A stretch of DNA of 64,000 nucleotides, from contig JAEEKI010000014.1 of NCBI GenBank assembly GCA_016282375.1, positions 85,791 through 149,790 on the forward strand, given 5' to 3'. The position numbers and the translations under genes are program-made. The stretch comes from Bacillales bacterium. Its GTDB lineage: Bacteria > Bacillota_I > Bacilli_A > RF39 > UBA660. Positions within the stretch are counted from its first letter, which is position 1. Each line of letters starts with the position of its first letter. Below are positions 5,194 through 25,910 of the stretch, piece by piece. Under the pieces are notes generated by a model. It worked only from the letters and a program-made list of their open reading frames with translations, was not told the DNA's origin and ran no database searches.

Positions 5194-5403
5194 AGTAATA
5201 TCTTATTGTCTTTAATTAACTATTCTTGTCTTGACCATTATAATTAATACACATTTGCACTCTTCAGAGGGCGATAATTTATACGACTTATCTCTTATAC
5301 AAAAGTTTAAATTTCCCATAAAATAAGGTTTTATGAGGCTCATCAATTTATCATAGTTTATCAACATTTGTATAGGCGTTAATGTAAAAGTTAATGTAAA
5401 AGT

Positions 5404-5437
5404 AAAAATCAGATATATTTTTGTCTATATCTGATTT
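5404..5437 (-). terminator. terminator of the PHP-ATPase operon
   Basis: 12-bp stem AAATCAGATATA/TATATCTGATTT with a T-run on the minus strand. Confidence 0.65.
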
Positions 5438-5444
5438 CTATCTT

Positions 5445-5747
5445 TTATTGTTCTAAATATTCGTTATTAATTGGATCACTAAAATTGTTTTTTAATGTTT
5501 CTAATTCAGTATTTAGATGGTTAATATATTTTTCAGCAATCTCTGAATATAAATCTTCTTTTTTCTTGTTGAAGTTAAAACTGATGTCCTGATTATCAAC
5601 AAATTTTTCTAAAATCTTATAAAACATCTTTTTTGTATTTCCTTGATCATCAGATGTTATTTCTATTTTTACTGGCTCATCAAAATTAAAAACCAAATAC
5701 GCTTTATCTTTATCCTCAGTAATTAACACTTCAATTTTATTATTCAT
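5445..5747 (-). CDS. small cytoplasmic protein (100 aa), third gene of the PHP-ATPase operon
   Basis: The ATG at 5747 overlaps the stop of the upstream gene by 8 nt (ATGAATAA). A GGAG lies inside the upstream gene's end. A terminator sits immediately downstream. Confidence 0.5.
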   Translation of the reverse strand: MNNKIEVLITEDKDKAYLVFNFDEPVKIEITSDDQGNTKKMFYKILEKFVDNQDISFNFNKKKEDLYSEIAEKYINHLNTELETLKNNFSDPINNEYLEQ

Positions 5748-7875
5748 ATAAATCTCCTCTTTCTTCAAATGCTTCTTTTCCACCTTCTAAGTATTTAATG
5801 CTTTCTTCTTTCCAACTTAGTTTTTCTCCAGTCGATATTTCTTTAAGCTCATCAGTAAACATATTTCCTATATATGTTTTATACTTATCATTATCAACGG
5901 TTTTAAGAATAGAGCATGATGGCCTAGTTCTAATTGCTATATTAGCATCATGTGTAGCTATAACCAATACTTTTTTTGCCGTCGCTAAATCCTTTATTAA
6001 TGGAACTATTTCTTCATTTATATATGTACTTCCAAGATTTGCTTCAGGTTCATCAATTAGGAAAATATCATAATCCTTCTTGGATAGAAGATTATGTTGA
6101 AGTGATAGTATGGCTAATTCTCCTTTTGATGGCTTATATTGAACCTCATTGATGGTAAATGATTTTGTTATTGAGATAAATTCATTTATATCAGTAAGCT
6201 TAATCTTTGCTATATTTTCTTTTATTAATTTTATATTATTTGGTATTTTGTCTGAAGCAATATCACTATTTATTTTTTCTAATTCAGAAACAATAATACT
6301 TAATTCTGTTTTATTTGTTTTTAGGGATTTTGAATCAATTGTTTTTTTATTGCTACTATTTATAAAGGAATACTTTGTTGTTAGTTTGACTTCTCCCTTT
6401 AAGCCAAGTTTTCCAATAAAGATACTGTTTGAATTTTCAGTATTATTTAGAATACTTAATATGGTACTCACATTTTCCTTTAATTCAATTCTATTTTTTA
6501 TAAACTCACATAATCCTGTTTCTGTTGGCATTGAAGGGCTTCCAATATTTTGCGATACAAAATTATTCATTTTTTCTACAAAATCATCTAACAATCTTAC
6601 TGAGTTTTCCTCTATCCATATTTCTTTATATTTTTCATATATATGTGATTTTGTATTTTGCAACTGCTTTATTAAATCTGTTATTTCTTTTTCATTAATC
6701 TTTTTATATTCAAAAGCATTTGCCTTATTTATAAAATCATCTATATTATTAATATCTTCAAATAATCCTTTGTATATTTTATCCGTATATGAATGTAATT
6801 TATTAATTTCCAAACATAACATTTTCTTTCTTTTTTTATTTGTAGAAGCGTTTTTATAATATTTATAATAATTCTTTAGTGAAATTGGGTTAGTATCAGT
6901 AAACGCCTTTATTTTTGATATTTCTGTTTTATAGTCCGATTCTAACTTTAAATTAGTATATGTATAATCTATATCATTTAATTTAATCTTTTGCTCATAC
7001 CATTCTTGTTTATCACCGCCAAAGAAAATTGTATATTTTAATCCTTTTAAATCGTAATAATTTTTTAGTGAATTTAAAATTTCTGTCTTGCCACTTCCTT
7101 TATCACCAAATATGATATTCACATCATCATAAATTGGAATATTAAATGGATATTCTTTTTTATCACTTATACCATATACCTTTACATTTTCATTAAAATT
7201 CTCATTAATCAAATCTGATATTAATAAAGTATCTTTGTCAACAAATCTTAAAAGATGTGAAAAATCTTTTACATCAAATTTTAATTCTGCAAAAAAGCAT
7301 TTTTCATATTCATTCCAATCTGTTACATCAGATCCGATCATTGCTCTATGATTATTGCTTTGTAAAACTCCTATAGAAACAATATTAGATGCCTCTTTTA
7401 GCAATCTTAAGGGATGTTCCATAATCGACGCTAAATCATTTAAATCTGCATCAGATAGTTGTTTATCTTTTAAAAAATGTGCTATATAAATTATGTCCAT
7501 ATCCTTAAAAGTACTATATAATAGATGGCTGTTAATATAAAAGTCATCTGGCTTTTTATTGCCTAACATATTATTAATTTTTTCATTAAATAAATCGATT
7601 TTTTCTGGACTAGCGACTAGTATAATATGACCTCTTGTTTTTTCGATATTTCCTTCAACATCTAGTTCAATTCCAGGCATTACATAACATATATCTTTTA
7701 CAGATTCTTTAAATGATAAATACTCCTCTTTATTAAAATAATTATGATTTGTGATTCCTAACATTTTTACTTCTGCTTCTTCAACTTTTTCTCTAAATAA
7801 GTTTATTTTTACATTCCTAGATTCACTCTCAAATGATTTTGTCTTTTTTGTATGACAATGTAAATCTATTTTCAT
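5740..7875 (-). CDS. PHP-domain / ABC-type (SMC/OLD-like) ATPase fusion protein
   Basis: N-terminus KIDLHCHTKKT...GITNHN (PHP phosphoesterase His motifs). Walker A FGDKGSGKTE, signature-like PSKGELAILSL, and Walker B/D-loop IFLIDEPEANLG...IATHD. Confidence 0.7.
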   Translation of the reverse strand: MKIDLHCHTKKTKSFESESRNVKINLFREKVEEAEVKMLGITNHNYFNKEEYLSFKESVKDICYVMPGIELDVEGNIEKTRGHIILVASPEKIDLFNEKINNMLGNKKPDDFYINSHLLYSTFKDMDIIYIAHFLKDKQLSDADLNDLASIMEHPLRLLKEASNIVSIGVLQSNNHRAMIGSDVTDWNEYEKCFFAELKFDVKDFSHLLRFVDKDTLLISDLINENFNENVKVYGISDKKEYPFNIPIYDDVNIIFGDKGSGKTEILNSLKNYYDLKGLKYTIFFGGDKQEWYEQKIKLNDIDYTYTNLKLESDYKTEISKIKAFTDTNPISLKNYYKYYKNASTNKKRKKMLCLEINKLHSYTDKIYKGLFEDINNIDDFINKANAFEYKKINEKEITDLIKQLQNTKSHIYEKYKEIWIEENSVRLLDDFVEKMNNFVSQNIGSPSMPTETGLCEFIKNRIELKENVSTILSILNNTENSNSIFIGKLGLKGEVKLTTKYSFINSSNKKTIDSKSLKTNKTELSIIVSELEKINSDIASDKIPNNIKLIKENIAKIKLTDINEFISITKSFTINEVQYKPSKGELAILSLQHNLLSKKDYDIFLIDEPEANLGSTYINEEIVPLIKDLATAKKVLVIATHDANIAIRTRPSCSILKTVDNDKYKTYIGNMFTDELKEISTGEKLSWKEESIKYLEGGKEAFEERGDLYE

Positions 7876-7890
7876 AAATTATTCCTCCTT

Positions 7891-8604
7891 TTACCACATC
7901 CATGGCTTTTTAAAACACTCTAGTGCAGTATCAGGTAAAGTATATAATCTATAATCTTTATTTGATATAGTATATGGTTCATATAAATCTTTTTGGTGGA
8001 TAAAAAATGGTTGCTCATATAAATTGCCATACGAATCTCTAAACAACAATGCTAATTCACTACTAAAAGTATTGTATATTTTGCTGCCTTCTAAATATGC
8101 TATATCAATTAGAATAATATCATTTTTTAATATTTTTCTATCATAACAATAACTATAATTAACAAATTTGCTATCAACTATATACTTTATAGATTCAATA
8201 TCACAAAGCATTGTATATTTTTGAGCTGTAGCACATATATCTAATTGATTTATATCAGCATTACCTATATTCTTGATGTAAAATCTTAAATGCTTATATT
8301 TATCCTTCTTTAGTACATCTTTACTATAATGAAACTCTACATCTTTTTTATCATTAATTGATGTTTTAAAATCAGTCATAAATAAAGAAATGTCTGGTTT
8401 TTCTTTGGAATCCCATTGTTTATCTTCAATATGTAATTCTGCTTTGTTTAAAAATTGCTGTTTTCTTTCCTTTTTATTTTCTTGTTTTTCATTATATTTC
8501 CTATCACTTTTTCTAAATATAATCTGTATGATTGTCGTAATAGCTAAAGTTATTAGTGAAGCAACAACCGCATTATTATTAATAAAATTAAATATATCTT
8601 TCAT
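7891..8604 (-). CDS. hypothetical single-pass membrane protein, first gene of the PHP-ATPase operon
   Basis: N-terminal TM helix (VVASLITLAITTIIQIIF) followed by a Lys/Glu-rich linker and a globular domain. It ends 15 nt before the PHP-ATPase start, which carries an AAGGAGG RBS. Confidence 0.55.
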   Translation of the reverse strand: MKDIFNFINNNAVVASLITLAITTIIQIIFRKSDRKYNEKQENKKERKQQFLNKAELHIEDKQWDSKEKPDISLFMTDFKTSINDKKDVEFHYSKDVLKKDKYKHLRFYIKNIGNADINQLDICATAQKYTMLCDIESIKYIVDSKFVNYSYCYDRKILKNDIILIDIAYLEGSKIYNTFSSELALLFRDSYGNLYEQPFFIHQKDLYEPYTISNKDYRLYTLPDTALECFKKPWMW

Positions 8605-8622
8605 TTAAACCCCCACTAAAGC

Positions 8623-8648
8623 AAAAAGATATCATAATAATGATATCT
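8623..8648 (-). terminator. hairpin plus T-run after the GmrSD-like gene
   Basis: AGATATCAT-TATT-ATGATATCT followed by TTTTT on the minus strand. Confidence 0.5.
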
Positions 8649-8697
8649 AGTTATGATTATTATATCACAATAATAATCTTTTTAAAATCAAATTTAA

Positions 8698-12442: not shown

Positions 12443-14188
12443 TTAACTTTTAAATATATCTAAATAATCACGAAGTTGTTTGCCAACTGTAGTTGAATTA
12501 TATACGTTTTTTAATCTCTCTTTAATATAAGTAGTGTAATTTGTATTATTCTTTAAAAAGTACGATGAATAATTAGTTTGAACATTACCATCTTCCTTTG
12601 CGTCTTTAAATGTTTGATTTATTGTTTCAGCAATATACTTAAATAATTCATCAATTTTAGGACTAATCTCATTAATACTATTTACAGAAAAAATTCTATT
12701 TTTAAATCTGCATTCTCCAACTTTATCCTCTTTAGGATTAGTTGCTAATCCTTTAATTTTGAGTAACAAGCATACACTAGCTAAAATACTCCACATTCCT
12801 TCTTGTATAATTGAATATAATTCGCCATTTATATCTATCCCACCATTTTCAATGCTATTGTAGTTCTTTTTAAAATCATTTCTAAAATTTAAATATTTGT
12901 TATACAGCATTACTAAGTCATAATAAAGATTATAATTGTGTTCTGTATTATAAACTTTATCATAATATGTATCCATTAAACTATTTTTTGAGGCTTTGGC
13001 AGAACCAGGATTTTGAAAAATACAGGATAATATGATTTGTCCCAAAGTTAAGTTATCAATATGCTGCCATTTGCTTAAAGAATCAGGACGAATTTCTGTA
13101 CTTCTTTTTATTTTAATATCCAGTTTTAAATCGTTTGCTAAAGCACCGTTCCGTAATTTTTGTTGTTCCTCTGAATTTGCACGTGTATCTCGTAAATTTA
13201 TAGATTTCTGATAATTTGTTGCAATTGAAATATCTTGTAAATATTTCTTAGCTAACTCCATTTTTTTATACGGGGCAACTACTACCTTACAAAGAACATA
13301 AAAATCGTAGCCATCAACAATTTTTTTTGACATTCCAATGTTTGTTGTTGTTTGAGCTCCATTGATAATAGAAAAATTTTTTAAATGAATAGTATTATTT
13401 TTTATCTCACATTTTTCGCATCCAATTGTCAACCCGTTGTTTTTATACCAAAAGTTTTTAGAATCGTTATCTATTGTTTCATTTATCGATTTATCAACTT
13501 TGATACCATTTATCTTTTCACGTAGGTTATAACTAAATAAACCTTTAAACTTCTTTTGATTATATAGCTTTTTTATTGAATTAGCAGAAACATTCACAAT
13601 AAAACCGTTTTTACTGTATCTTAAGACATTATTATGTGAGTCTATATCAAGTGTATAATCATCAACTTTCTTATTTGGATCATTCATAAAAACTTGATTT
13701 TCAATGTCTTCTTTATCATAGATTACTATTTCATATCCTTTTCTTTGATATTCATTAGTATCTTTTAATTCAGGTTTTAATTTATTCTTATAAAAAAGAA
13801 CCAAGTATATCTTTGAAACATCATCCATGACATCTAACATCTTCTCTGCCAAAGAAGGCTTTATATTTGAAAAATCATTTTTCTTTATTTCCTCAATGGT
13901 TCTAATTATATTATCAAACACGTTATGAATACCATTTCTTAAAATAGAATTTTGGGTTTTGCCCTGTATTAAAAAAAGTTCACCATCATCATTTTTATAA
14001 ATATAATCTATTCCACCATCCCCACAACCATCAACAAACCCTTCTGAAATATCGTTAACTCCAATATTGTCAGAAAAATAAAAGCTACTTACCTGTTGAA
14101 TAGTAAATAAAAACCTAGGATTTTCATATATTCCTTTTTTTACTCCCGCATCATTACACATTGATTTTAACGATTTTTCTGAAATCAC
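12443..14188 (-). CDS. AIPR-family (abortive-infection phage resistance) protein
   Basis: N-terminal GCGDGGIDYIY...FLIQGKT nuclease-like motif and central NGLTI / INGAQTT motifs, as I recall for AIPR proteins. GTG start with GGAGG RBS. Located between dpnM and dpnA. Confidence 0.6.
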   Translation of the reverse strand: MISEKSLKSMCNDAGVKKGIYENPRFLFTIQQVSSFYFSDNIGVNDISEGFVDGCGDGGIDYIYKNDDGELFLIQGKTQNSILRNGIHNVFDNIIRTIEEIKKNDFSNIKPSLAEKMLDVMDDVSKIYLVLFYKNKLKPELKDTNEYQRKGYEIVIYDKEDIENQVFMNDPNKKVDDYTLDIDSHNNVLRYSKNGFIVNVSANSIKKLYNQKKFKGLFSYNLREKINGIKVDKSINETIDNDSKNFWYKNNGLTIGCEKCEIKNNTIHLKNFSIINGAQTTTNIGMSKKIVDGYDFYVLCKVVVAPYKKMELAKKYLQDISIATNYQKSINLRDTRANSEEQQKLRNGALANDLKLDIKIKRSTEIRPDSLSKWQHIDNLTLGQIILSCIFQNPGSAKASKNSLMDTYYDKVYNTEHNYNLYYDLVMLYNKYLNFRNDFKKNYNSIENGGIDINGELYSIIQEGMWSILASVCLLLKIKGLATNPKEDKVGECRFKNRIFSVNSINEISPKIDELFKYIAETINQTFKDAKEDGNVQTNYSSYFLKNNTNYTTYIKERLKNVYNSTTVGKQLRDYLDIFKS

Positions 14189-14201: not shown

Positions 14202-15032
14202 TTAGTAATTTGTTATAATTACTTCTTCTACTTTTCCTCTCTTTTTGCCATTTGCATTTATATTTCTTTTAGCTTCAATAACATGAATATTAAAATCTTT
14301 ATATAATTCATTGATTAATGAAGTATTGTGATTTGAAAGCATTACATAGCATCCTTTATCAGCAAGTTTTTTATATACTTTTGCAAGTTTTTTTTGTTCC
14401 TCTTTTCCAAATCCGTATTCTGTATAACTATTAAATGTTGTTGTATCCGAATCATAAGGTGGATCGAAGTAGATAAAGTCCTCTTTTTTAGCATCCTTCA
14501 CAGCTTCTTCAAAATCTACGCTCAATATTTTTACATCGTTCATTGTTAAATAATTGCTTACTGTTATCAAATTTTCACCATCATAGGTATTAACTTTTGC
14601 TTTCTTACCAAATGGAACATTAAACTCATTCTTACTATTTACTCTGTACAATCCATTGAAACACGATTTATTTAAATAAATAGTTCTTCCTGCCCTTGTA
14701 TAATCTGATAGTCTATTAAATGATGCTTTATTTCTATCTTTATTTCTTATTTCATAATAGAATTCTTCACTATGATTTGCTTCATAACCATTTAAAACAT
14801 TGCACATCTTTTTAAATTTATTTTCATTACATAAAACATTATAAACATTTATTAACTCTTTATTGTAATCGTTTATTACGGCTTTCTTTGGTGATAATTC
14901 AAACAATAAAGCTCCACCACCTACAAATGGCTCATAGTATGTGTCAAAATCAGCAGGGACGTATTCTAATAATTTTTCAATTATTTGCCTTTTACCGCCC
15001 GCCCATTTGACAAATGGTTTTCCTTTTATCAT
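14202..15032 (-). CDS. dpnM: Dam-type N6-adenine DNA methyltransferase (GATC), DpnM-like
   Basis: FVKWAGGKRQ, EPFVGGGA and FIYFDPPY motifs (alpha class). GGAGGT RBS precedes the internal ATG at 15032. Confidence 0.85.
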   Translation of the reverse strand: MIKGKPFVKWAGGKRQIIEKLLEYVPADFDTYYEPFVGGGALLFELSPKKAVINDYNKELINVYNVLCNENKFKKMCNVLNGYEANHSEEFYYEIRNKDRNKASFNRLSDYTRAGRTIYLNKSCFNGLYRVNSKNEFNVPFGKKAKVNTYDGENLITVSNYLTMNDVKILSVDFEEAVKDAKKEDFIYFDPPYDSDTTTFNSYTEYGFGKEEQKKLAKVYKKLADKGCYVMLSNHNTSLINELYKDFNIHVIEAKRNINANGKKRGKVEEVIITNY

Positions 15033-15282
15033 CGTTATCAACCTCCAAGGTGTACTCATGTTAATTATATCATTAATTCTTCACTTTTCATATATTATTA
15101 AAAATAATCGGATTATCTTTATAATATCTTTTTTTATGAAAATAATTATCAAACATATATGTATCGATATCATCATAATCAACGTTATCAATTACATAAC
15201 TAACTATCGTTTTGGTCTCAAATATATCGTTGTTTTTTAGATATTTTAATTAGATAATGCATGTAAAATTTTATGTAGAGGC

Positions 15283-16908
15283 TTAACTTTTTTCTTTTTC
15301 CTTTATTTTCTTATAAAAATTAGCAACTACATTATCAGTAATTATAGAACCAGCATTGATTTTTTCAGTTAAATATAATTTGTCATAATTTGCACAACGT
15401 GATAAAGCAACATATGCTTGGCCAGGTGCAAAACAACTATCCAAATTGCAAGCAATTTGTTGATAAGTCATTCCTTGAGATTTATGGATTGTAATTGCAT
15501 AAGCAAGAATTAAGGGAAATTGACTTACACTTGATTCAACTATATATTCTAATTTTCCTTCATCCCTATCATATTCACATTTATATTTATTAAATGTTAC
15601 TGGAGAAATCTCGTAATCTGTTCCATTAATAGTAACCTTTATAAGTGTTGGCGATAATGAAGATATAATTCCTAACGTTCCATTAACCCACCTCTTATTC
15701 TCTTGATCATTTGTAATCATCATGACTAACGCACCAACTTTTAATTTCAAATCAAAATCACAAGGAAAATCGGTTTCTTTTAAGTTATTATCTCCTACTA
15801 GTATATTAGCTTGATACTCAAATAGTTGACTTCCAAGTTTATCAAGATTTTCCATATTAATACTATTAGCTTCATTTTTCTTAGGCACAACCTGAACTAC
15901 TCTTCTGGGTACATCTTTTACATAATGCCTATTTAATGATTTTATTTGCTGCTCATTGATATTTCCTATTCTTATGTCATTTAAAATTTCAATAAACTCT
16001 TGATCTTTTTGCCTAAATATTTCTTCAATTTCCCTAAACTTAAAATTGCCATTTTTATATGCGGGAGAATTAAAGAAAAATACTCCACCATATTTATCTG
16101 TAAAGAATTCAACCTCTTCTTTTTTTGCAACTGGAGGTAATTGAAATAAATCTCCAAACAGTATTATTTGTTTCCCACCAAATGGTCGCTCATTTCTATT
16201 CGCTACTTTTAAAATCTTATCGACCTGATTAAAAACATCCACCCTAACCATTGAAATTTCATCAATAACTAATGTATCAATGCTTTTAAATAATGATAGG
16301 TTATTAGAAGATAACTTTATTTCACTTTCATCAATTAAATTATTCCATCCGAATGCTGAATGTAATGTAACGCCATTTATATTTAAAGCTGCTATTCCAG
16401 TTGGCGCACAATACAATACTTTTTTCTTTGTCTTTGCACGAAAGTATTTCAATAAGTAGCTTTTACCAGTACCAGCCTTTCCTGTTATAAATATGTTTGT
16501 GTTAGTATTTTCCATTATTTTGAATATTTCACTTTTTTCTTTGTTTAAATCTTCTAAATCATGAACTTCTTTTGGTTGCGCTTTTATCTCATCAGTTGGC
16601 TTATCTTCTGTCTTAGTTTTTTCTATTAATTCAAGCGCTTCATCCAATACATTTAGAGTTAAAGAGTCATTCTTAATTTCTGTATAATTACTTAATTCTT
16701 CTAGCAATTTATCATTTTGTCGCTTTAATTCTTCTATCTTAGCATTATTTGATTCAATTATTTTATTTTTATTATTTAAATCAGATTTAATATTTTTTAT
16801 TAAATCATTCATTGATTTGATATCATTTTGCAAATTTCCTATATCTTGATTTTTTTGATAAATTATTATTGTTAAAATTATTATTACTATTATTAATACA
16901 TAAATCAT
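15283..16908 (-). CDS. Pif1/RecD-like SF1 helicase with N-terminal TM helix and coiled coil
   Basis: MIYVLIIVIIILTIIIY TM helix, then a ~60-aa heptad-like region. Helicase motifs ITGKAGTGKSYLL, VIDEISMV, FGDLFQLPPV, TIHKSQGMTY and YVALSRC. Confidence 0.75.
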   Translation of the reverse strand: MIYVLIIVIIILTIIIYQKNQDIGNLQNDIKSMNDLIKNIKSDLNNKNKIIESNNAKIEELKRQNDKLLEELSNYTEIKNDSLTLNVLDEALELIEKTKTEDKPTDEIKAQPKEVHDLEDLNKEKSEIFKIMENTNTNIFITGKAGTGKSYLLKYFRAKTKKKVLYCAPTGIAALNINGVTLHSAFGWNNLIDESEIKLSSNNLSLFKSIDTLVIDEISMVRVDVFNQVDKILKVANRNERPFGGKQIILFGDLFQLPPVAKKEEVEFFTDKYGGVFFFNSPAYKNGNFKFREIEEIFRQKDQEFIEILNDIRIGNINEQQIKSLNRHYVKDVPRRVVQVVPKKNEANSINMENLDKLGSQLFEYQANILVGDNNLKETDFPCDFDLKLKVGALVMMITNDQENKRWVNGTLGIISSLSPTLIKVTINGTDYEISPVTFNKYKCEYDRDEGKLEYIVESSVSQFPLILAYAITIHKSQGMTYQQIACNLDSCFAPGQAYVALSRCANYDKLYLTEKINAGSIITDNVVANFYKKIKEKEKS

Positions 16909-17352
16909 AAATACCTCTATTTAAAATCTAATAATGGTAGTGTCATTTATCTGAACCGAAACATTGATAACTCTTAGGAAATATATATCTTTAATCATTG
17001 ACCTCTTTACACCAACCATTTAACTTATTTAAAAATCCACTTTTTGAATCCGTGATAATTGCTTATTTTTCCATGATCCATCCAAATACTGACTTATCTT
17101 TGCTTTTAACAAATTTCGTTTTTGTCACCTTATAATTAGCGTTAGAATATACCAAATTATTACATCTATCATACATCTTGATTATTTCATAATTAATTTG
17201 GATGTCAGCTAGTTTTATTCTTACACACATTTACTACTTATTTCCCTTACTATAATAAGTATAACATATCTATTATATAAATAATAGTTCAATAAAAAGC
17301 CTTGTTTTATAAGGATTTTTATTACTTAAATTAACATATATACATTTTATAA

Positions 17353-18363
17353 TTATTTAACATTTATCTCTTTTATAATACTCTCTCCATGAGTTTTAAT
17401 CTTAACTGGAGTTAAGATATTAGCAATCTTAAGTTCTTCAATGGTTTTAGGTCTTAGTTCTACTAACTTATCTAGTTCATCATTAGTAAATACATAATAA
17501 GCTGGTATTCCCATTTCAGTTGACCTATTTTTACGTAGTTCAATTAATCGTTCTTTTAAATTATCATTAACAGGTACACTATTTTGACAATATTTATTCT
17601 TATAATAGTCATAATAATTAATATCTTCTTTAATAGATAATTCTAAATATGATTTTGCTAGTTCTTCCATGGATTTTCTTGAATCAAATGATTCATCATT
17701 ACCTCGATGGTTTATGTCGTATTCCATTTGTCTTACTAAAGCATCAGCTCTTAAAACTTTATATTTAATATCTTTTGGAGCACGATTAGTATTTAAAATC
17801 GTATCTTGATTAGCGGCTACTACTAAAACTCTTCGATAGTAATCAAAATTCTTGGAAGCAAAAAACTTTCTTATTCTGGAAGTATTACTTTCCCATATTT
17901 TTCTTACTACTTCTCTTTGTGCTTCAACTTGTCTTAAAGGAGAATACATTCCCTTTTTTATTTTCTTACCATTAATAACATATTCTCTTATAAAATCGCC
18001 TTTATCAGTAACTGTAATATTACCTACTAGATTTTTACATTCAATATAATAAATATAAACAGGCGTAATTATTACATAGTCTATTTGGGCAGTTAAATCC
18101 TCATATTTTAATTTAATATCTCTTAAAACATACATGCCTATATGAGCTTTCTTTAGTTGATAAGCTATCTCATTTTCTCCATCTAAGCCTTTTTTAACAA
18201 TATAAAGTTCACTCATTAAGTCTTCGTTATTAGGATATTCTTCATTTAATTTTTTTAATGCATCATACTTACTTTGTAAATCACTATCTTCTTTATAAAA
18301 AACAGTATCTTTAAATCTAAAGGCATCAAATGCTGAATCTATTACACTATCTATTAGTCCCAT
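17353..18363 (-). CDS. NERD-domain protein with C-terminal HRDC/HhH-like tail
   Basis: GLDGENEIAYQL...QIDYVIITPVYIYYIECKN matches the NERD pattern. The C-terminus IPAYYVFTNDELDKLVELRPKTIEEL resembles an HRDC-like helix bundle. Confidence 0.65.
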   Translation of the reverse strand: MGLIDSVIDSAFDAFRFKDTVFYKEDSDLQSKYDALKKLNEEYPNNEDLMSELYIVKKGLDGENEIAYQLKKAHIGMYVLRDIKLKYEDLTAQIDYVIITPVYIYYIECKNLVGNITVTDKGDFIREYVINGKKIKKGMYSPLRQVEAQREVVRKIWESNTSRIRKFFASKNFDYYRRVLVVAANQDTILNTNRAPKDIKYKVLRADALVRQMEYDINHRGNDESFDSRKSMEELAKSYLELSIKEDINYYDYYKNKYCQNSVPVNDNLKERLIELRKNRSTEMGIPAYYVFTNDELDKLVELRPKTIEELKIANILTPVKIKTHGESIIKEINVK

Positions 18364-18398
18364 TTATATCACCAATTTCATTATATCACACAAAAGAT

Positions 18399-18421
18399 TA
18401 CTTCAAGTAAAAAAGACTACT
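18399..18421 (-). terminator. terminator overlapping the UvrD-like stop codon
   Basis: AAGACTAC-TGA-GTAGTCTT followed by TTTTTT (minus strand). Confidence 0.65.
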
Positions 18422-20682
18422 CAGTAGTCTTCTTTTGCTTCATTAATAATATCATCAATCTCGCGTATAAATTCACTTCTGTTTTTTGCATTTTCATCAA
18501 TTAATAAGTATACCCTATTCTTAGTTCTTGTAAGAGCTACATAAAATAATCTTCTTTCTTCGGCAAAAGGAATATGCTCTTCAATAGGTTTATTTTTATA
18601 TAACTCTTCATACCAATAAATATTTGTATGAACTGATGGAAATGTTTTATTTAAACCAATAATAATTACTTCATCATAAGTTAAACCTTTTGATTTATGC
18701 ATAGTCATACTATCAATTTGAATATCTTCATTACCTTTGAATGTAATTTTTGAACCTATATCATCAAGTAATTCTTCATCTTCGAGGATACGATTAATCA
18801 TTCTATTAGTTCTGCCTAAAACTAGGATATTATGATCTGGATAATTATCATGTATTTCTAGTATTGTTTTCTTTAAACAATCTATTTCCGCTAGATTATT
18901 TGATGAACTATCAAACTTTTTATAAATAATTGGATTATCAAGATGTTTACTAGATATTAATTTTTTTCTTAATTGATCTGGGTTACGCATAATAAAAGTA
19001 CCTGAATAATCTATTAATTCTTGACTATTACGATATGTCCTAGAAATATTAAAACTTTTAGAACCTTGAAAGAATTTCTCAAAATTATATATATACTCGA
19101 TTCTTGAACCACTGAAAGCATAGATACTTTGCCAATCATCTCCGACTGCATATACTTTAGCATCGTTCTTTTTTGCCGTTTTATATGTTAATTCATATTT
19201 AATTTGAGATATATCTTGATATTCATCAATAATAATATAATCAAAACGTAATTTTGTATCAATAGTTAGTTTTTCCAAATACTTTACTGAGAAATATAAT
19301 AAATCCGCAAAATCAAAATAGTAATAATCTCCCCCAAAAGCGGCTTCGGAATAAAAGTTAGTAAAATTAATTAAATACTTATACTGAATAGCTATCTTTT
19401 CATCATCACAATTATCGACATATTCTTTTGCTCGATCATAATCACTGCGATAAAAAGACTCTTTACGAGTAATTAAACAATCATATAAAAAATATAAGAA
19501 TGGATATACTTGGGATGTTGGATTAAGTCTCAAAAGATGTTCATAAACTTCTTCATCTGATAATTCATGATATACAATACCTAAATCTTTTAATTTTTTA
19601 TCTAGTACATCCACTATGTTTTCTAAAGGTAAACGGTCTATCTCAATAAACTTATTACCTCTTTTTTTATGAAAATCTCTTTTATACTTTCTTATTTTAT
19701 TATACTCTTGATCATCTAAACCGAAATACTCAATATATATTTTTTCACCAGCATAATCAATTGTAAAATCCGGTTTATAAATAGCTCTATTTTCTAATAA
19801 TTCTTCATATACTTCTTCATAATAATAATCAAGTCCATGAGTATATAGGAAATTAGCTATAACCATCTCACCTGCTGATTTAACATATTCTCCTTTTAAA
19901 GAACGAATATCAGTATCTTTTAATAATTGTTTATTAACCTTTTCTTCGATTAAAGTCTTTATATCTTTATTCTTAGCTTCCTCAAGTTTATATTTAACAT
20001 ATCCATCCACTAAATCATCATATGAATCAAATCTTTTATAATTATTTAAAAAGAAATTGCCAAAAATAAACCCTGATTTTTCTTTAACAATATCAAAATT
20101 ATTAATTATTTCTTCAATATGTCTTTTATCTTTAAATATATTTCTAAAGTAATCTAAGAATATTTCATTTTTCTTATTGCGATCCATAATGACACATTTA
20201 CAATCATTAAAAATTTCTTTAATATATTCATAACCTAAAGAATGAAAGGTTGTAATATGAACAGGTAGTTCAAAACTCTCTTCGATTTTACGAGCAATCT
20301 CTTCAGTTGCTTTTCTAGTATAACTCATAACTAAAATACGTTCAGGATCAGCATGTTTTTTATCGACTAAGTATTTAACCTTAGATACCATGGTTGTTGT
20401 TTTACCAGTACCTGCTCCGGCGATTATTAAAGAGTATTTTTCATCAGCTAAAATAGCCTTACATTGTTCTTCATCTAAATGAATATTATCATCAATACCT
20501 TTGTACATGTTAGCAAAGTAGTCTTTATTCTCTAAATATAGTCTATCTAGTATCTTGGTATTATATGCATCTAAATCAAATCCTGAAGGTATTAAACTAC
20601 TTTCATTTTCTTTGATATAATCATATAAATACTTTGAGATATACTCATTATTCTTATATTTACTAACAAACTGACTATCCAT
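18421..20682 (-). CDS. UvrD/Rep-family helicase, helicase IV-like with inserted nuclease-like module
   Basis: AGAGTGKTTT, IIIDEYQD, RTYRN, MTMHKSKGLTYDEV and VALTRTKNRVYL. Insert GEMVIANFLYTHGLDYYYE...YKPDFTI...YIEYFG resembles the HelD/PD-(D/E)xK-like segment. Confidence 0.8.
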   Translation of the reverse strand: MDSQFVSKYKNNEYISKYLYDYIKENESSLIPSGFDLDAYNTKILDRLYLENKDYFANMYKGIDDNIHLDEEQCKAILADEKYSLIIAGAGTGKTTTMVSKVKYLVDKKHADPERILVMSYTRKATEEIARKIEESFELPVHITTFHSLGYEYIKEIFNDCKCVIMDRNKKNEIFLDYFRNIFKDKRHIEEIINNFDIVKEKSGFIFGNFFLNNYKRFDSYDDLVDGYVKYKLEEAKNKDIKTLIEEKVNKQLLKDTDIRSLKGEYVKSAGEMVIANFLYTHGLDYYYEEVYEELLENRAIYKPDFTIDYAGEKIYIEYFGLDDQEYNKIRKYKRDFHKKRGNKFIEIDRLPLENIVDVLDKKLKDLGIVYHELSDEEVYEHLLRLNPTSQVYPFLYFLYDCLITRKESFYRSDYDRAKEYVDNCDDEKIAIQYKYLINFTNFYSEAAFGGDYYYFDFADLLYFSVKYLEKLTIDTKLRFDYIIIDEYQDISQIKYELTYKTAKKNDAKVYAVGDDWQSIYAFSGSRIEYIYNFEKFFQGSKSFNISRTYRNSQELIDYSGTFIMRNPDQLRKKLISSKHLDNPIIYKKFDSSSNNLAEIDCLKKTILEIHDNYPDHNILVLGRTNRMINRILEDEELLDDIGSKITFKGNEDIQIDSMTMHKSKGLTYDEVIIIGLNKTFPSVHTNIYWYEELYKNKPIEEHIPFAEERRLFYVALTRTKNRVYLLIDENAKNRSEFIREIDDIINEAKEDY

Positions 20683-21160: not shown

Positions 21161-22792
21161 CTATCTACGGCCTCGACCATAATTGTCTTCTTCGGTATAA
21201 GTTAATTCTGTTGATAACATATCTTTATAGTCTTTTTCACTGACATGAATAATTCTTCCTCCAACTGGAGTAAAGTCCATTTTATCGCCAAAAACAATCC
21301 ATATAATATCTGGTACTCTTGTTACTTGAGGTCTTCCTAAACATCCATCAGTAAAGACAATTTTGACCATTTCCTTTCCAGGATCGGGTGAAAATGATGT
21401 CGCTGCTAATTCAAAATTAGTACCACCACCTATTACTGGTCGATATTCAGCTATTTCTTTTTTACTTCTTATAACTTGAAAATCAGTAACAGTATCAGAA
21501 AAAGTGCCTACTTTCATAGTTAAATCTTCTTCATCATATATTTCTTCAAAGATTTCATATAATTGTAATAAAAATCCTCTTAATAAACTCATTGATATAG
21601 AGCTTGAAACATCTAGTCGTACTTCAATAGAACATAATCCTTCGATAATTCTTTCTTCCACCCGTGGATTAGGATAACTTCTAGAAGATCTTCTTGTACT
21701 CCAAACTTCTTCCGTTTTTTCTAAGATACCTGTTAATAACATTTTCCAAGATAGAATTGGCTTTGTTGGTTCAGCTTTACCGATTCCATTTTGAGCTCTA
21801 ATTTTTGATAATGAACTTTGGGCATCTTTTTGACTTTGTTTTTCACGATTTTCTAATTCTTTATTAAAGATGTCTTCATCATCAATATGTTCTTCTTGAC
21901 TCTCAGTTGTTGACTGTCTTTGTGAATCCTTTTTGTCTTCTTCTTTACTATTATCTTTTGATTTACCTGTCCATTGTTCATGGGAATCAAATCCATCATA
22001 CTCATCAGGGTTTATGTTATCAATCGATGATGAATTATTATTTCCTTGTTCTTGCTTATTATCATTTTCATTATCTTGACTATTTTGATCACTACTTTGT
22101 TTTTGACCATCACTTTGTTCTTGTGAATTATTTTGATTTTGGGAATTTTGATTGTTACCTGAAGATTGTTGATTACCTTGATTATTATGCTCTTGATTTT
22201 TTTGTTCTTCTTGTTTTTTCTTTGCTTCTTCCTCTTCTTTTTGAACTAATTGATCATATATTTTTTCGGCACTTTTAACTAAACCATCTGCTAATTCCAC
22301 AAACTGCATTTTTTGACCAGTCTTTGGATTTGTAACATTTGTTGGGAAAGAAAATCCATCTTTTTTTAAGAAAGCATTAATACAAGCATCTGTAGCTATA
22401 TTCCAAACTCTTTGATAATGCATATGTAACTGTGCTCTTTTAGCTTGTCTTTTTGCCTCATCCGTTTCTATTTGACAATACTCATCATATTTTCTTTGTT
22501 CATCTTTTTCTGGTTTGTCTAAAGACCTAGCAAAGTGTTTTAAAGCAATGTGCATTGCTTCATGAGCCAAAACAAAAACTCGCTCACTAAAAGATAAGCG
22601 ATCAAAAAAATCAGGATTAACAACGATTTTTTTTATTTCAATAATGCCTTTATCATTTTTTTCACCGACCACAGCCGCCGTATCGATACTTTTATCAAGT
22701 TCTATATCTACGCCATGTAAAGCAAGACCAGCCGTAAGTTGATATCTTCTGACAACGGATTTTTTAACTTTTTCTAATTCTTCGACAGTCAT
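21161..22792 (-). CDS. VWA-domain / putative metallopeptidase protein (DUF2201-like) with Q/N/S-rich linker
   Basis: VLAHEAMHIALKH and NIATDACINAFL (DUF2201_N-type HExxH). C-terminal VWA-like VRLDVSSSIS...GGGTNF...VFTDG. About 145 aa of low complexity lie between them. Confidence 0.7.
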   Translation of the reverse strand: MTVEELEKVKKSVVRRYQLTAGLALHGVDIELDKSIDTAAVVGEKNDKGIIEIKKIVVNPDFFDRLSFSERVFVLAHEAMHIALKHFARSLDKPEKDEQRKYDEYCQIETDEAKRQAKRAQLHMHYQRVWNIATDACINAFLKKDGFSFPTNVTNPKTGQKMQFVELADGLVKSAEKIYDQLVQKEEEEAKKKQEEQKNQEHNNQGNQQSSGNNQNSQNQNNSQEQSDGQKQSSDQNSQDNENDNKQEQGNNNSSSIDNINPDEYDGFDSHEQWTGKSKDNSKEEDKKDSQRQSTTESQEEHIDDEDIFNKELENREKQSQKDAQSSLSKIRAQNGIGKAEPTKPILSWKMLLTGILEKTEEVWSTRRSSRSYPNPRVEERIIEGLCSIEVRLDVSSSISMSLLRGFLLQLYEIFEEIYDEEDLTMKVGTFSDTVTDFQVIRSKKEIAEYRPVIGGGTNFELAATSFSPDPGKEMVKIVFTDGCLGRPQVTRVPDIIWIVFGDKMDFTPVGGRIIHVSEKDYKDMLSTELTYTEEDNYGRGRR

Positions 22793-22794
22793 AA

Positions 22795-23196
22795 TTATTC
22801 CTGAATTTCTATGTATTGTACTGCTTCCATTATTTCAGGAAGAATTGGACATTTAGTATTGGCATTGATGATAATCCTTAGATTACTTGGTAGTTTTTCA
22901 CTAGAAATACAATTACGACAAATAATATCCATAAACAATTTTTGTTCTTCAAGAGATATTTTATCAAAATCAGTTATACATAAAATATTAGTAGTTTCAT
23001 ACCCATTTTTTAATACTCTTAAATACCATAATGGATAATTATTACCATTAATAATTAAATCTTTCTTAGGAATAGTCGCAGATATCTTCGTAATATAATC
23101 ATTATCTTTAATATCCATTGTCCCTGAAACATAAATGGGAATAACATAATCAAGTAAACTTTCTTTAATAATAGCTAAAACTTCATCACTTTTCAT
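22795..23196 (-). CDS. hypothetical 133-aa protein resembling an AAA+ core that lacks Walker A
   Basis: ILCITDFDKISLEEQKLFMDII...LPSNLRIIINAN resembles the MoxR Walker-B/sensor-1 region. No P-loop is present. Gaps of 11 nt and 2 nt to the neighbouring genes. Confidence 0.45.
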   Translation of the reverse strand: MKSDEVLAIIKESLLDYVIPIYVSGTMDIKDNDYITKISATIPKKDLIINGNNYPLWYLRVLKNGYETTNILCITDFDKISLEEQKLFMDIICRNCISSEKLPSNLRIIINANTKCPILPEIMEAVQYIEIQE

Positions 23197-23207
23197 TTAA
23201 TTCCTCC

Positions 23208-25838: not shown

Positions 25839-25910
25839 AATATACACCACCTATTATAAATATCATAACATATAATTAAATACATATAAATAAAAAAGTA
25901 TATTTCAAGG

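What the first reader, a model, noticed from the sequence alone, without database searches (positions are those of the whole stretch)
5445..8604. Three-gene operon: TM protein, PHP-phosphoesterase/ABC-ATPase fusion, small protein
The 711-aa protein joins an N-terminal PHP domain (HCH...NHN) to an SMC/OLD-type ABC ATPase (GSGKTE, PSKGE signature-like, LIDEPEANLG, ATHD). This is the logic of OLD/PARIS/Gabija-type ATPase-plus-nuclease defence proteins, with PHP in place of TOPRIM.
The preceding gene encodes a single-pass membrane protein of unknown fold and ends 15 nt before the ATPase start (AAGGAGG RBS). The following 100-aa gene overlaps the ATPase stop by 8 nt.
The operon lies at the edge of the defence island, immediately downstream of the RM/GmrSD operon.
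Basis: partly seen in the sequence, partly recalled or inferred. Interest (0 to 1): 0.68.

Follow-up and report, generated by a model that had tools for sequence, protein, structure and literature searches.

The report
PHP-nuclease/ABC-ATPase plus small partner cassette
The three genes are real, but the conserved unit is a two-gene cassette: a metal-dependent PHP phosphoesterase fused to an ABC ATPase, plus a tightly coupled small acidic protein. It is an untested, widespread relative of the known Ppl and candidate PDC-M49 anti-phage systems, and the upstream membrane-protein gene is a separate resident of the defence island.

Summary
Three co-directional minus-strand ORFs (A 237 aa, B 711 aa, C 100 aa) have the stated motifs, a 15-nt AAGGAGG spacer and an 8-nt B/C overlap. 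They lie between a DpnII-RM/GmrSD cluster and pyrH.

B is confirmed as an N-terminal PHP phosphoesterase fused to an ABC ATPase. The AF2 model has pLDDT 90. The PHP part is closest to RNase AM and Pol III-α PHP, and the ATPase is closest to AriA, RecN, SMC and Rad50. All catalytic motifs are invariant in 29 diverse homologues.

The functional unit is B+C, not A+B+C. In 80 loci from about 10 phyla, a C homologue sits directly downstream of B in 77; the other 3 are truncated contigs. B and C co-diverge (Mantel r = 0.94). No locus has an A homologue.

A recurs in one lineage between variable upstream genes (McrBC, GmrSD, Mrr) and variable downstream defence cargos.

B is a full-length but distant homologue of PADLOC's untested candidate PDC-M49A and of Ppl-like proteins. 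It fails the curated thresholds for Ppl and TrlF. C matches no model and no known fold.

Verdict: a probable two-gene defence cassette and a new variant of a known kind, of moderate interest.

The parts
5740..7875 (-). Gene B: 711-aa PHP phosphoesterase / ABC ATPase fusion (core of the system)
   Evidence: ORF. PADLOC PDC-M49A 2.4e-31 over the full length. More than 548 homologues of 702-724 aa. AF2 model pLDDT 90.3. Foldseek hits to PHP and SMC/RecN/Rad50/AriA folds.
7201..7875 (-). PHP (polymerase/histidinol-phosphatase) domain, residues ~1-225
   Evidence: D4, H6, H8, H44, E70, D72, H83, H133 and D183 are invariant in 29 homologues. Foldseek: RNase AM PHP domain 7ug9 (TMt 0.62), Pol III alpha PHP 4gx9, BAD_1165 3o0f/3e0f, 2yb1. 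The NCBIfam TrlF N-terminus matches at 1.7e-22. Pfam PF02811 does not reach E<=0.01 on this sequence.
5743..7200 (-). ABC ATPase (SMC/Rad50/OLD/AriA class) with a helical arm inserted between the lobes, plus a conserved C-terminal tail
   Evidence: The model has long helices at 366-385, 395-444 and 455-478 between the Walker A lobe and the signature/Walker B lobe. Foldseek hits RecN, Smc head, JetC, Rad50 and AriA. The PDB profile search ranks AriA first at 1.9e-10.
7084..7107 (-). Walker A / P-loop GDKGSGKT (res 257-264)
   Evidence: G257, G260, G262 and K263 are invariant. Coordinates.
6490..6537 (-). Conserved motif PSxPxETG(F/L)xxFxxNR between the long helices (res 447-462), probably at the tip of the helical arm
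   Evidence: P450, G454 and R462 are invariant. The motif lies between helices 395-444 and 455-478 of the model. Its role is inferred, not shown.
6118..6132 (-). ABC signature-like motif PSKGE (res 582-586)
   Evidence: S583, G585 and E586 are invariant. It aligns to the AriA 'SSGER' signature.
6043..6063 (-). Walker B / D-loop FLIDEPE (res 605-611)
   Evidence: D608, E609 and P610 are invariant. It aligns to AriA 'LIDEPE'.
5947..5958 (-). H-loop ATHD (res 640-643)
   Evidence: T641 and H642 are invariant.
5445..5747 (-). Gene C: 100-aa acidic partner protein, translationally coupled to B
   Evidence: A C-family HMM hits 77 of 80 B loci. Every hit is the ORF directly downstream of B, and there is none elsewhere among 5,314 ORFs. 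Mantel r = 0.94 against B. The family's median pI is 4.7. AF2 pLDDT is 84 with a beta-beta-beta-alpha-beta-alpha topology. No significant fold or sequence match was found.
5740..5747 (-). 8-nt overlap ATGAATAA between the B stop and the C start (translational coupling)
   Evidence: RefSeq-annotated plasmid homologues show comparable overlaps of 11-17 nt.
5403..5440 (-). Intrinsic-terminator-like hairpin plus U-run directly after C
   Evidence: dG -17.5 kcal/mol, z = -7.98, 0 of 200 shuffles fold as well. Sequence.
7891..8604 (-). Gene A: 237-aa N-terminally membrane-anchored protein. Co-transcribed neighbour, not part of the conserved B+C system
   Evidence: No homologue in the 80 B+C loci. 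It has 169 close homologues in one lineage, found in about 20 different defence contexts. No family, fold or PDB hit.
7876..7890 (-). 15-nt A-B spacer with AAGGAGG ribosome-binding site. Also the breakpoint of cassette exchange
   Evidence: DNA homology to L081 (93%) ends 4 nt before B's ATG, where PDC-M49 replaces B+C.
8659..8686 (-). Promoter-like site (TTTAAA, 16 nt, TG-extended TATAAT) upstream of A
   Evidence: 10/12 match with TG. Consensus match only: the number of such sites in the region does not exceed the shuffle expectation.
8622..8648 (-). Weak hairpin GATATCAT-TATT-ATGATATC plus T-run between GmrSD and A (leaky terminator or operator)
   Evidence: dG -9.2 kcal/mol, z = -1.9. A 31-nt copy at 97% identity lies upstream of PDC-M36A in L082.

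Best explanation
Genes B and C form a self-contained two-gene cassette that most likely acts as an anti-phage or anti-mobile-DNA defence system. It belongs to the 'ABC ATPase + nuclease' class.

Shown computationally:
- B is a single polypeptide with an intact-looking PHP metal-phosphoesterase domain at the N-terminus. This is joined to an SMC/Rad50/AriA-type ABC ATPase whose two lobes are separated by a ~180-residue helical arm.
- C is a ~100-aa acidic protein of unassigned fold. Its gene always overlaps the 3' end of B, and it co-diverges with B.
- The pair is patchily distributed across phyla. It occurs on plasmids and next to RM, BREX, CBASS, Dodola, Mokosh and similar genes.

Inferred:
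- B dimerises head-to-head on ATP, as all ABC ATPases do.
- The ATPase and arm sense a phage cue, either invading DNA or replication intermediates, or a phage protein.
- This licenses the PHP domain to hydrolyse nucleic-acid phosphodiester bonds. The closest structural relatives are exonucleases such as RNase AM and Pol III-alpha PHP.
- C is made in fixed proportion by translational coupling. It binds B as a regulatory subunit, most plausibly holding the nuclease in check or conferring trigger specificity.

Gene A is co-transcribed here but is an independent, lineage-restricted island gene. The slot downstream of it carries interchangeable defence cargos.
For: Domain identity:
- The AF2 model has pLDDT 90.3.
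- Foldseek finds PHP folds (RNase AM 7ug9 TMt 0.62; Pol III alpha; BAD_1165) and ABC heads (RecN, Smc, JetC, Rad50, AriA).
- AriA of PARIS is the top PDB profile hit, 1.9e-10.
- PHP ligands and the Walker A, signature, Walker B and H-loop motifs are invariant in 29 homologues at 34-100% identity.

Relatives:
- PADLOC PDC-M49A matches at 2.4e-31 over the full length.
- hhalign against a bona fide PDC-M49A gives prob 99.9%, E 1.2e-33, end to end.
- hhalign against a Ppl-like 847-aa protein gives prob 98.6% over nearly the full length.
- Ppl is an experimentally active ATPase+PHP defence gene (PMC11482910).

B+C linkage:
- 77 of 80 loci from about 10 phyla, including an archaeon, have C directly downstream, and the 3 exceptions are truncated contigs.
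- Mantel r = 0.94, 0 of 2000 permutations reach it.
- Annotated plasmids show the same two-gene cassette with 11-17-nt overlaps.

Defence context:
- In the window the cassette follows AbiU, DpnII RM and GmrSD.
- In other loci the immediate neighbours include BrxL, type I/IIG RM, GmrSD, CBASS cyclase and NucC, DolB, MkoC, DpdF, PbeA, TIR, NERD+UvrD, PDC-S11/35/39, integrases and transposases.
- At the same slot after gene A, related genomes carry PDC-M49, Ppl-like pairs, PD-Lambda-4, Iet, PDC-S06 or Gabija instead.
Against: - No member of the B/C family has been tested. PDC-M49 itself is one of '145 untested' candidates (10.1101/2024.01.29.577857).
- Pfam's PHP and AAA models do not reach significance on this sequence.
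- The final His of the canonical PHP 'DxH' motif is not conserved; only D183 is.
- The defence-island association was judged from aggregate neighbour hits without a matched background control. Some neighbours are housekeeping genes: GcpE, pyruvate kinase, PCRF, TatC.
- C's role is pure inference. Its fold has no significant match.
- No B-C complex model could be computed.
- Substrate (DNA or RNA), trigger and outcome (abortive or direct) are all unknown.
Confidence: 0.6

Rival explanations
1. One reading: A, B and C form a three-component system. The membrane-anchored A works with the PHP-ATPase, for example as a membrane effector, sensor or anchor, at least in this lineage.
For: - A-B spacing is 15 nt with a shared RBS, a promoter-like site lies upstream of A and the only strong terminator lies after C.
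- A-B-C is kept together behind a different upstream gene (Mrr) in L083-L085.
- About 7 of 20 A contexts carry a PHP-ABC + small-ORF cargo from three subfamilies. These are the B family at 100, 78 and 36% identity, PDC-M49, and three Ppl-like pairs. That looks over-represented.
Against: - No A homologue occurs in 80 B+C loci across phyla, nor on plasmids.
- A also precedes unrelated cargos: PD-Lambda-4_A, IetAS, DUF3800/nSTAND3, PNP, 284 aa + NUDIX, and a 425-aa protein + Gabija.
- The conserved A DNA block has its own upstream intergenic region, and homology ends at or just after A's stop.
Confidence: 0.12
2. B+C is primarily a toxin-antitoxin or addiction-type module. B is a nuclease toxin and C a small acidic protein antitoxin. 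It would stabilise plasmids and islands rather than sense phages.
For: - The architecture is TA-like: a large enzyme plus a small, acidic, translationally coupled partner that co-diverges with it.
- Copies sit on S. aureus, Enterococcus, Clostridium and Photobacterium plasmids, flanked by Fst toxins and IS257.
- C's beta-beta-beta-alpha-beta topology weakly recalls HicB-type antitoxin domains, but the match is non-significant (E 0.18).
Against: - The gene order (large protein first, small partner second) and the 711-aa ATP-regulated enzyme are atypical for classical TA pairs.
- AriA, the closest characterised ATPase relative, is part of a phage-sensing system.
- TA-like behaviour and defence are not mutually exclusive.
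- No DNA-binding or autoregulatory domain is recognisable in C.
Confidence: 0.12
3. B is a housekeeping DNA-repair or RNA-processing enzyme: a single-chain analogue of SbcCD/Mre11-Rad50 or RecN joined to an RNase AM-like exonuclease. C would be an accessory factor.
For: Structural neighbours are RecN, Rad50, SMC and RNase AM / Pol III alpha PHP. Some loci lie beside housekeeping genes.
Against: - The distribution is patchy across about 10 phyla, with no conserved genomic context.
- Copies occur on plasmids next to IS elements and RM systems.
- At the same slot B+C is replaced by other defence systems in sister genomes.
- No curated housekeeping family matches. NCBIfam's best hit is TrlF at 80 bits against a 350-bit cutoff.
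Confidence: 0.04

Closest known systems
PDC-M49 (PADLOC-DB v2 'phage defence candidate'; Payne et al., bioRxiv 10.1101/2024.01.29.577857). Untested.
   Same: Both are two-gene cassettes: a PHP + ABC ATPase protein followed by an overlapping ~100-aa ORF. B is homologous to PDC-M49A over its full length (PADLOC 2.4e-31; hhalign prob 99.9%). The conserved C-terminal 'L/MExG..A..ER..YE' tail is shared. In L081 a bona fide PDC-M49 occupies exactly the position of B+C after GmrSD-A.
   Different: B is only ~22% identical and ~40 aa longer. It scores 107 bits against 615 bits for a true member. C is not recognised by any PDC-M49B model even at E<=1, and hhalign finds nothing (prob 0.4%). PADLOC would therefore probably not call this system (inference).
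Ppl (PplA; Gao et al. 2020). A validated single-gene anti-phage system: 'ATPase domain and PHP domain' (PMC11482910).
   Same: The domain composition and order are the same. The B family aligns nearly full-length (prob 98.6%) with a Ppl-like 847-aa protein that hits PADLOC's Ppl model at 1.3e-23.
   Different: B gives no hit to PADLOC Ppl or NCBIfam Ppl_antiphage. Ppl is ~880-890 aa and described as single-gene, whereas B has an obligate small partner. Ppl's mechanism is itself unknown.
PARIS (AriA ABC ATPase + AriB TOPRIM nuclease), Gabija GajA, and OLD-family nucleases
   Same: All share the logic of an ABC ATPase coupled to a nuclease. AriA is the best PDB sequence match for B's ATPase, 1.9e-10. 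AriA, GajA and PtuA give weak PADLOC hits.
   Different: B's nuclease is PHP, not TOPRIM or HNH. It is fused at the N-terminus, whereas GajA/OLD carry a C-terminal fusion and AriB is a separate protein. The partner is a 100-aa acidic protein, not a helicase or nuclease.
TrlF family AAA-like ATPase (NCBIfam NF045780)
   Same: The N-terminal PHP region and Walker A region are similar (1.7e-22).
   Different: B scores 80 bits against a 350-bit cutoff. TrlF proteins are ~880-944 aa. In Vibrio plasmid p123, TrlF is the last gene of a multi-gene operon with a TM0106 RecB-like nuclease, and no small downstream ORF follows it.
RNase AM / YciV (TrpH) and Pol III-alpha / PolX PHP exonuclease domains
   Same: These are the closest folds to B's N-terminal domain (7ug9 TMt 0.62; 9etk, 4gx9, 2yb1). 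The HxH...H...E...H...H...D ligand pattern is shared.
   Different: They are stand-alone or polymerase-fused housekeeping enzymes with no ABC ATPase. Sequence identity is 9-16%.
SbcCD / Mre11-Rad50
   Same: A metal phosphoesterase nuclease works with a Rad50-type ABC ATPase that has a coiled-coil arm (Foldseek Rad50 hits). This is an analogy of mechanism.
   Different: The nuclease fold differs (calcineurin-like rather than PHP). SbcCD has two subunits, a long coiled coil with a Zn hook, and a housekeeping role.

Membership tests
PDC-M49 (PADLOC candidate system) | Protein matching a PDC-M49A HMM | tested here: inconclusive
   B matches PDLC04680 at 2.4e-31 (107 bits) over the full length. A genuine member (L081) scores 3.5e-185 (615 bits). 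hhalign shows full-length homology at 22% identity. B is a homologue but a clearly separate subfamily.
PDC-M49 (PADLOC candidate system) | Adjacent protein matching a PDC-M49B HMM | tested here: not met
   C has no PADLOC hit even at E<=1. C-family profile against PDC-M49B gives prob 0.4%. Size, position and gene overlap are nevertheless the same.
Ppl (Gao et al. 2020) | Match to the Ppl model (PADLOC PDLC02208; NCBIfam NF042955, cutoff 1000 bits) | tested here: not met
   No Ppl hit for B or for two B homologues at E<=0.01 to 1.
Ppl (Gao et al. 2020) | PHP domain and ATPase domain in one polypeptide | tested here: met
   Ppl is described this way in PMC11482910.
Ppl (Gao et al. 2020) | Single-gene system | tested here: not met
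   B has a strictly linked partner C in 77 of 80 loci. The Ppl-like proteins seen here also carry an overlapping 87-99-aa ORF.
Ppl (Gao et al. 2020) | Demonstrated protection against phage | not testable with these tools
   Requires experiments.
TrlF family AAA-like ATPase (NF045780) | Score at or above the curated cutoff (350 bits) | tested here: not met
   80 bits. The best stretch covers only residues 2-162.
PHP superfamily phosphoesterases | PHP fold | tested here: met
   Foldseek prob 1.00 to RNase AM (7ug9, 9etk), the Pol III alpha PHP chimera (4gx9), 3o0f/3e0f and 2yb1.
PHP superfamily phosphoesterases | Conserved metal-ligand motifs (HxH, H, E, H, H, DxH) | tested here: met
   H6, H8, H44, E70, H83, H133 and D183 are invariant in 29 sequences. 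The last His of 'DxH' is not conserved. Assignment of residues to the canonical motifs rests on my reading of the alignment, not on a structural superposition.
PHP superfamily phosphoesterases | Pfam PF02811 at gathering threshold | tested here: not met
   No PF02811 hit at E<=0.01 for this sequence. PF02811 is precomputed for a few homologues: P0064, P0068, P0080, P0093.
ABC ATPases of the SMC/Rad50/OLD/AriA class | Walker A, signature (SxGE), Walker B (DEPE) and H-loop in ABC order, with a helical insertion between the lobes | tested here: met
   Invariant motifs, model topology, Foldseek and PDB hits.
OLD-family nucleases / Gabija GajA | TOPRIM nuclease domain C-terminal to the ATPase | tested here: not met
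   No TOPRIM hit. The C-terminus is a short beta/alpha tail. The nuclease candidate is the N-terminal PHP domain.
Type II toxin-antitoxin module | Partner neutralises toxicity of the enzyme and autoregulates the operon | not testable with these tools
   Only circumstantial evidence: a small, acidic, coupled partner.

The most novel reading that the evidence does not exclude
Gene A and its promoter/RBS block may define a lineage-specific 'defence slot'. In it, nuclease-ATPase cassettes are swapped at or within a few bases of the cargo's start codon. The cargos seen are three subfamilies of PHP-ABC + small protein, PDC-S06, PD-Lambda-4, Iet and Gabija. Under this reading A is a shared membrane-anchored cofactor or leader for these systems. 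In parallel, the fast-evolving small partner would be the trigger-specificity subunit of a broad Ppl/PDC-M49/B superfamily. C, PDC-M49B and the 87-99-aa ORFs after Ppl-like genes are mutually unrecognisable in sequence but identical in size and position. If so, 'single-gene' Ppl-type systems would really be two-component.
Probability: 0.15. Interest if true: 0.75.

Novelty: new variant of a known kind. Interest (0 to 1): 0.5.

Why it matters
ATPase+PHP defence (Ppl) is validated but mechanistically unexplained, and PDC-M49 is only a prediction. This work defines a third subfamily. It is large (more than 548 proteins), spans many phyla and occurs on plasmids, and no current Pfam, NCBIfam, PADLOC or PHROG model names it as a system. 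It has an obligate, co-evolving small partner of unassigned fold.

If the cassette is confirmed as a defence system, annotation pipelines would gain a missing one. It would also offer a compact single-chain 'nuclease + Rad50-like ATPase' model. The small downstream ORF would be flagged as a likely general feature of Ppl-type systems, which is a concrete hypothesis for how they are regulated. S. aureus plasmid homologues make it testable in a tractable host.

The conserved A block, with sharp exchange breakpoints, gives a natural example of how defence cargos are swapped at one locus.

Tried and rejected
- Pfam on A, B and C gave nothing significant; PHP and AAA_15/21/23 did not fire on B at E<=0.01.
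- PHROGs gave no hit for A, B or C.
- tblastn of B against 50,697 phage genomes gave no match.
- Literature searches for 'TrlF' returned only the TRLFS spectroscopy acronym or irrelevant hits. 'PDC-M49' returned 0 papers. 'PplA/PHP/defense' and 'ABC ATPases/biological conflict/PHP/OLD' were uninformative.
- Word-indexed homologue search for C found only 3 close hits. The exhaustive representative search was needed and gave 46.
It was redone with admissible sequences.
- Foldseek of C against PDB and BFVD gave no hit at E<=0.001. Integrase-core and HicB-like matches are non-significant and were not used.
- PDB profile searches for the A and C families gave nothing.
- No contig record was found for the window's own B protein, so the source organism was not identified.
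- Rfam on the whole window found only a SAM riboswitch far away.
- The promoter scan is not enriched over shuffles (79 found, 79.9 expected), so the site upstream of A is only a consensus match.
- I considered filing B under Ppl, TrlF or PDC-M49. I rejected membership because curated thresholds or the partner-gene criterion are not met.
- I considered a housekeeping SbcCD/RecN-like role. I rejected it on distribution and context.

Full report

Yes. Three co-directional ORFs lie on the minus strand:
- A at 8604..7891 (237 aa).
- B at 7875..5740 (711 aa).
- C at 5747..5445 (100 aa from its ATG; the longest mechanical ORF starts at GTG 5783).

A's stop is followed by exactly 15 nt (aaggaggaataattt) before B's ATG. 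B's stop and C's start share ATGAATAA, an 8-nt overlap. A has one N-terminal hydrophobic helix.

Upstream on the same strand lie GmrSD, a DpnII endonuclease, an N6/N4 methyltransferase, an AIPR/AbiU protein and a D12 methyltransferase. Further up are PIF1, NERD-HRDC and UvrD genes. Downstream is convergent pyrH. The genes therefore sit at the edge of a defence island.

A promoter-like TG-extended -10 site lies upstream of A. It is a consensus match only, because such sites are not enriched over shuffles. A strong hairpin plus U-run follows C (dG -17.5 kcal/mol, z = -8.0). This fits an A-B-C transcription unit separate from the RM/GmrSD operon.

**2. What is B?**

Pfam is silent at E<=0.01. Three lines of evidence agree anyway.

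- *Family alignment.* B belongs to a large family, with more than 548 proteins at E<=1e-5, all 702-724 aa. In 29 members at 34-100% identity the following residues are invariant:
  - PHP-type ligands D4, H6, H8, H44, E70, D72, H83, H133 and D183.
  - Walker A residues G257, G260, G262 and K263.
  - A motif between the long helices, P450, G454 and R462.
  - Signature-like S583, G585 and E586.
  - Walker B D608 and E609.
  - H-loop H642.
  - A C-terminal W688...LEGG...A...R...Y tail.
- *Structure.* A high-confidence AF2 model (pLDDT 90.3) shows two parts. The N-terminal ~225 residues match PHP enzymes: RNase AM 7ug9 (TMt 0.62), 9etk, Pol III-alpha PHP 4gx9, BAD_1165 and 2yb1. The remainder matches RecN, Smc head, JetC, Rad50 and AriA. 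Long helices (366-385, 395-444, 455-478) form an arm between the two ATPase lobes.
- *Sequence profile against PDB.* AriA of PARIS is the best solved relative of the ATPase, at 1.9e-10.

**3. What is the conserved unit?**

A scan of one genome per species returned 80 loci. They come from Bacillota, Bacteroidota, Pseudomonadota, Actinomycetota, Verrucomicrobiota, Nitrospinota, Omnitrophota, Saccharibacteria and a Methanosarcinales archaeon.

C is strictly linked to B:
- tblastn of C finds hits at the same place, just after B's stop, in dozens of loci.
- An iterated C-family HMM hits 77 of 80 loci. Every hit is the ORF directly downstream of B, and there is none elsewhere among 5,314 ORFs. The three misses are truncated contigs.
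- B and C distance matrices correlate at r = 0.94, with 0 of 2000 permutations reaching that value. C evolves faster, at 30% against 38% mean identity.
- RefSeq-annotated plasmids from S. aureus, Clostridium and Photobacterium show the same pair: a ~705-714-aa 'hypothetical protein', 'histidinol phosphatase' or 'AAA family ATPase' plus an overlapping ~100-aa hypothetical protein.

A is not linked to B+C. It has no tblastn hit at E<=10 in any of the 80 loci, and an A-family HMM gives a best E of 1.2. The system is B+C, not A+B+C.

**4. What is C?**

C is a ~100-110-aa acidic protein; the family's median pI is 4.7. Conserved residues are K39, F42, Y74, L78 and E81, forming an 'EYIxQLNxE' helix. 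The AF2 model is confident (pLDDT 84) and has a beta-beta-beta-alpha-beta-alpha topology.

No significant structural neighbour exists in PDB or BFVD. The best hits are at E ~0.04-0.06, and integrase-core and HicB-like resemblances are non-significant. C has no Pfam, NCBIfam, PADLOC, PHROG or PDB sequence match.

**5. What is A?**

A has 169 close homologues, and the top 120 listed are at least 62% identical, all without annotation. Contexts sampled through contig look-ups and a metagenome scan show A in about 20 arrangements.

Upstream of A:
- McrBC, GmrSD or Mrr.
- SLFN-like helicases.
- A reverse transcriptase.
- Fic.
- PDC-M36A.

Downstream of A:
- B+C at 100, 78 and 36% identity.
- A bona fide PDC-M49.
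- Three Ppl-like 822-847-aa proteins, each with an overlapping 87-99-aa ORF.
- PDC-S06 ABC ATPases.
- PD-Lambda-4_A.
- IetA/IetS.
- A 425-aa protein plus Gabija.
- DUF3800 with nSTAND3.
- A PNP-family protein.
- A 284-aa protein with NUDIX.

At DNA level the window is 93% identical to L081 from GmrSD through A. Similarity stops 4 nt before B's ATG, exactly where PDC-M49 replaces B+C. In other loci only A, with or without its intergenic flanks, is conserved.

A is thus an independent island resident whose downstream slot carries interchangeable defence cargos. PHP-ABC + small-ORF cargos make up about 7 of 20 contexts. That over-representation leaves a minority possibility of functional cooperation in this lineage.

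**6. Comparison with what is known**

- *PDC-M49.* PADLOC's best hit for B is candidate PDC-M49A, 2.4e-31 over the full length. hhalign against a true PDC-M49A gives prob 99.9% end to end at 22% identity. But B scores 107 bits against 615 for a true member, and C is invisible to all PDC-M49B models. PDC systems are '145 untested phage defence candidates' found by guilt-by-embedding in BREX, DISARM and type I RM (10.1101/2024.01.29.577857).
[quoted passage not shown] PHP also occurs in Ophion OpnB (10.1101/2025.09.30.679545). B does not hit the Ppl models. It does align nearly full-length (prob 98.6%) with a Ppl-like protein.
- *TrlF.* NCBIfam TrlF matches only the N-terminus, at 80 bits against a 350-bit cutoff. 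On a Vibrio plasmid, TrlF is part of a different multi-gene operon.

B+C is therefore a distinct, unmodelled subfamily of a Ppl / PDC-M49 / TrlF superfamily of PHP-ABC ATPases.

**7. Defence association**

In the window the cassette abuts AbiU, DpnII RM and GmrSD.

Among 139 nearest flanking genes of the 80 loci, strong PADLOC hits include BrxL, type I and IIG RM, GmrSD, CBASS cyclase and NucC, DolB, MkoC, DpdF, PbeA, NERD+UvrD and PDC-S11/35/39. Pfam adds ResIII, TIR, SLFN helicase, integrases and transposases. Some neighbours are housekeeping genes.

Copies sit on mobilisable and conjugative plasmids next to IS257, Fst toxins, integrases and RM systems. None is in a deposited phage genome. 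The evidence is qualitative because no matched background was computed, but it is consistent with a defence-island or mobile-element lifestyle.

**8. Most likely mechanism**

My confidence in this account is about 0.6.

Shown: the domain architecture, intact catalytic motifs, obligate co-inheritance and translational coupling of B and C, and the island and plasmid context.

Inferred:
- ATP-driven head dimerisation of B.
- Sensing of phage DNA, replication intermediates or a phage protein through the ATPase and its arm. The conserved PxETG...NR motif sits between the long helices.
- Nucleic-acid hydrolysis by the PHP domain, whose closest folds are exonucleases.
- C acting as a stoichiometric regulatory or specificity subunit, either an inhibitor released on infection or an adaptor.

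Rivals:
- A three-component system including A (0.12).
- A TA or addiction module (0.12, not exclusive of defence).
- Housekeeping repair or RNA processing (0.04).

**9. Verdict**

The domain logic, the defence context and the small partner hold. The three-gene system and the implied novelty of PHP-for-TOPRIM do not.
- Novelty: a new variant of a known kind.
- Interest is moderate at 0.5. It is a widespread, untested and easily testable two-gene relative of Ppl with a partner of unassigned fold, plus a neat cassette-exchange slot behind gene A.

Noticed in passing
window 7876-8690 (-), compared with L081-L094 and L102-L117: Gene A, its upstream promoter/hairpin region and the RBS spacer form a conserved block (62-93% aa identity) in one low-GC lineage. 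Variable defence genes flank it on both sides. McrBC, GmrSD, Mrr, SLFN helicase, RT or Fic lie upstream. B+C, PDC-M49, Ppl-like pairs, PDC-S06, PD-Lambda-4, Iet, Gabija and others lie downstream. DNA homology breakpoints fall at A's stop or at the cargo's start codon. A may be an uncharacterised stand-alone defence gene or the anchor of a cassette-exchange slot.
   Followed up: partly
L088:3763-6496, L102:5702-8495, L117:312-3060: Three Ppl-like PHP-ABC proteins (822-847 aa; weak hits to PADLOC/NCBIfam Ppl) are each followed by an overlapping 87-99-aa ORF. None of these ORFs has detectable similarity to C or to PDC-M49B. Small partners may be a general, overlooked feature of Ppl-type 'single-gene' systems. 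The E. coli Ppl locus itself was not checked.
   Followed up: partly
window 12443-14188 (-): An AIPR/AbiU-like gene (PADLOC AbiU 1.1e-30) sits between the D12 methyltransferase (15059..14202) and the N6/N4 methyltransferase/DpnII genes. In L081 the two methyltransferases are adjacent. It looks like a defence gene embedded inside a DpnII-type RM operon.
   Followed up: no
window 15283-20682 (-): The same island carries further defence-like genes upstream: a PIF1-like helicase (16908..15283), a NERD + HRDC protein (18363..17353) and a UvrD-family helicase (20682..18421). NERD + UvrD resembles a PADLOC-listed pairing.
   Followed up: no
window 21161-25850 (-): A DUF2201 metallopeptidase/VWA-like protein (543 aa) lies next to an 880-aa protein that has only a weak RsgA-GTPase hit. 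Function was not examined.
   Followed up: no
window 8618-8648 (-) and L082:4483-4512: A 31-nt hairpin + T-run element between GmrSD and A recurs at 97% identity upstream of a PDC-M36A (DUF8370) gene that precedes an A homologue in L082. This suggests a conserved regulatory or terminator element that travels with the A block.
   Followed up: partly
window 52441-52524 (-): A SAM riboswitch (Rfam RF00162, 65.7 bits). Unrelated to the finding.
   Followed up: no
L100 (Vibrio tubiashii plasmid p123, 75333-88247): A RefSeq-named 'TrlF family AAA-like ATPase' is the last gene of an operon with a SMEK-domain protein, two hypothetical proteins and a TM0106 RecB-like nuclease. This is another uncharacterised PHP-ATPase system with a different architecture.
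   Followed up: no
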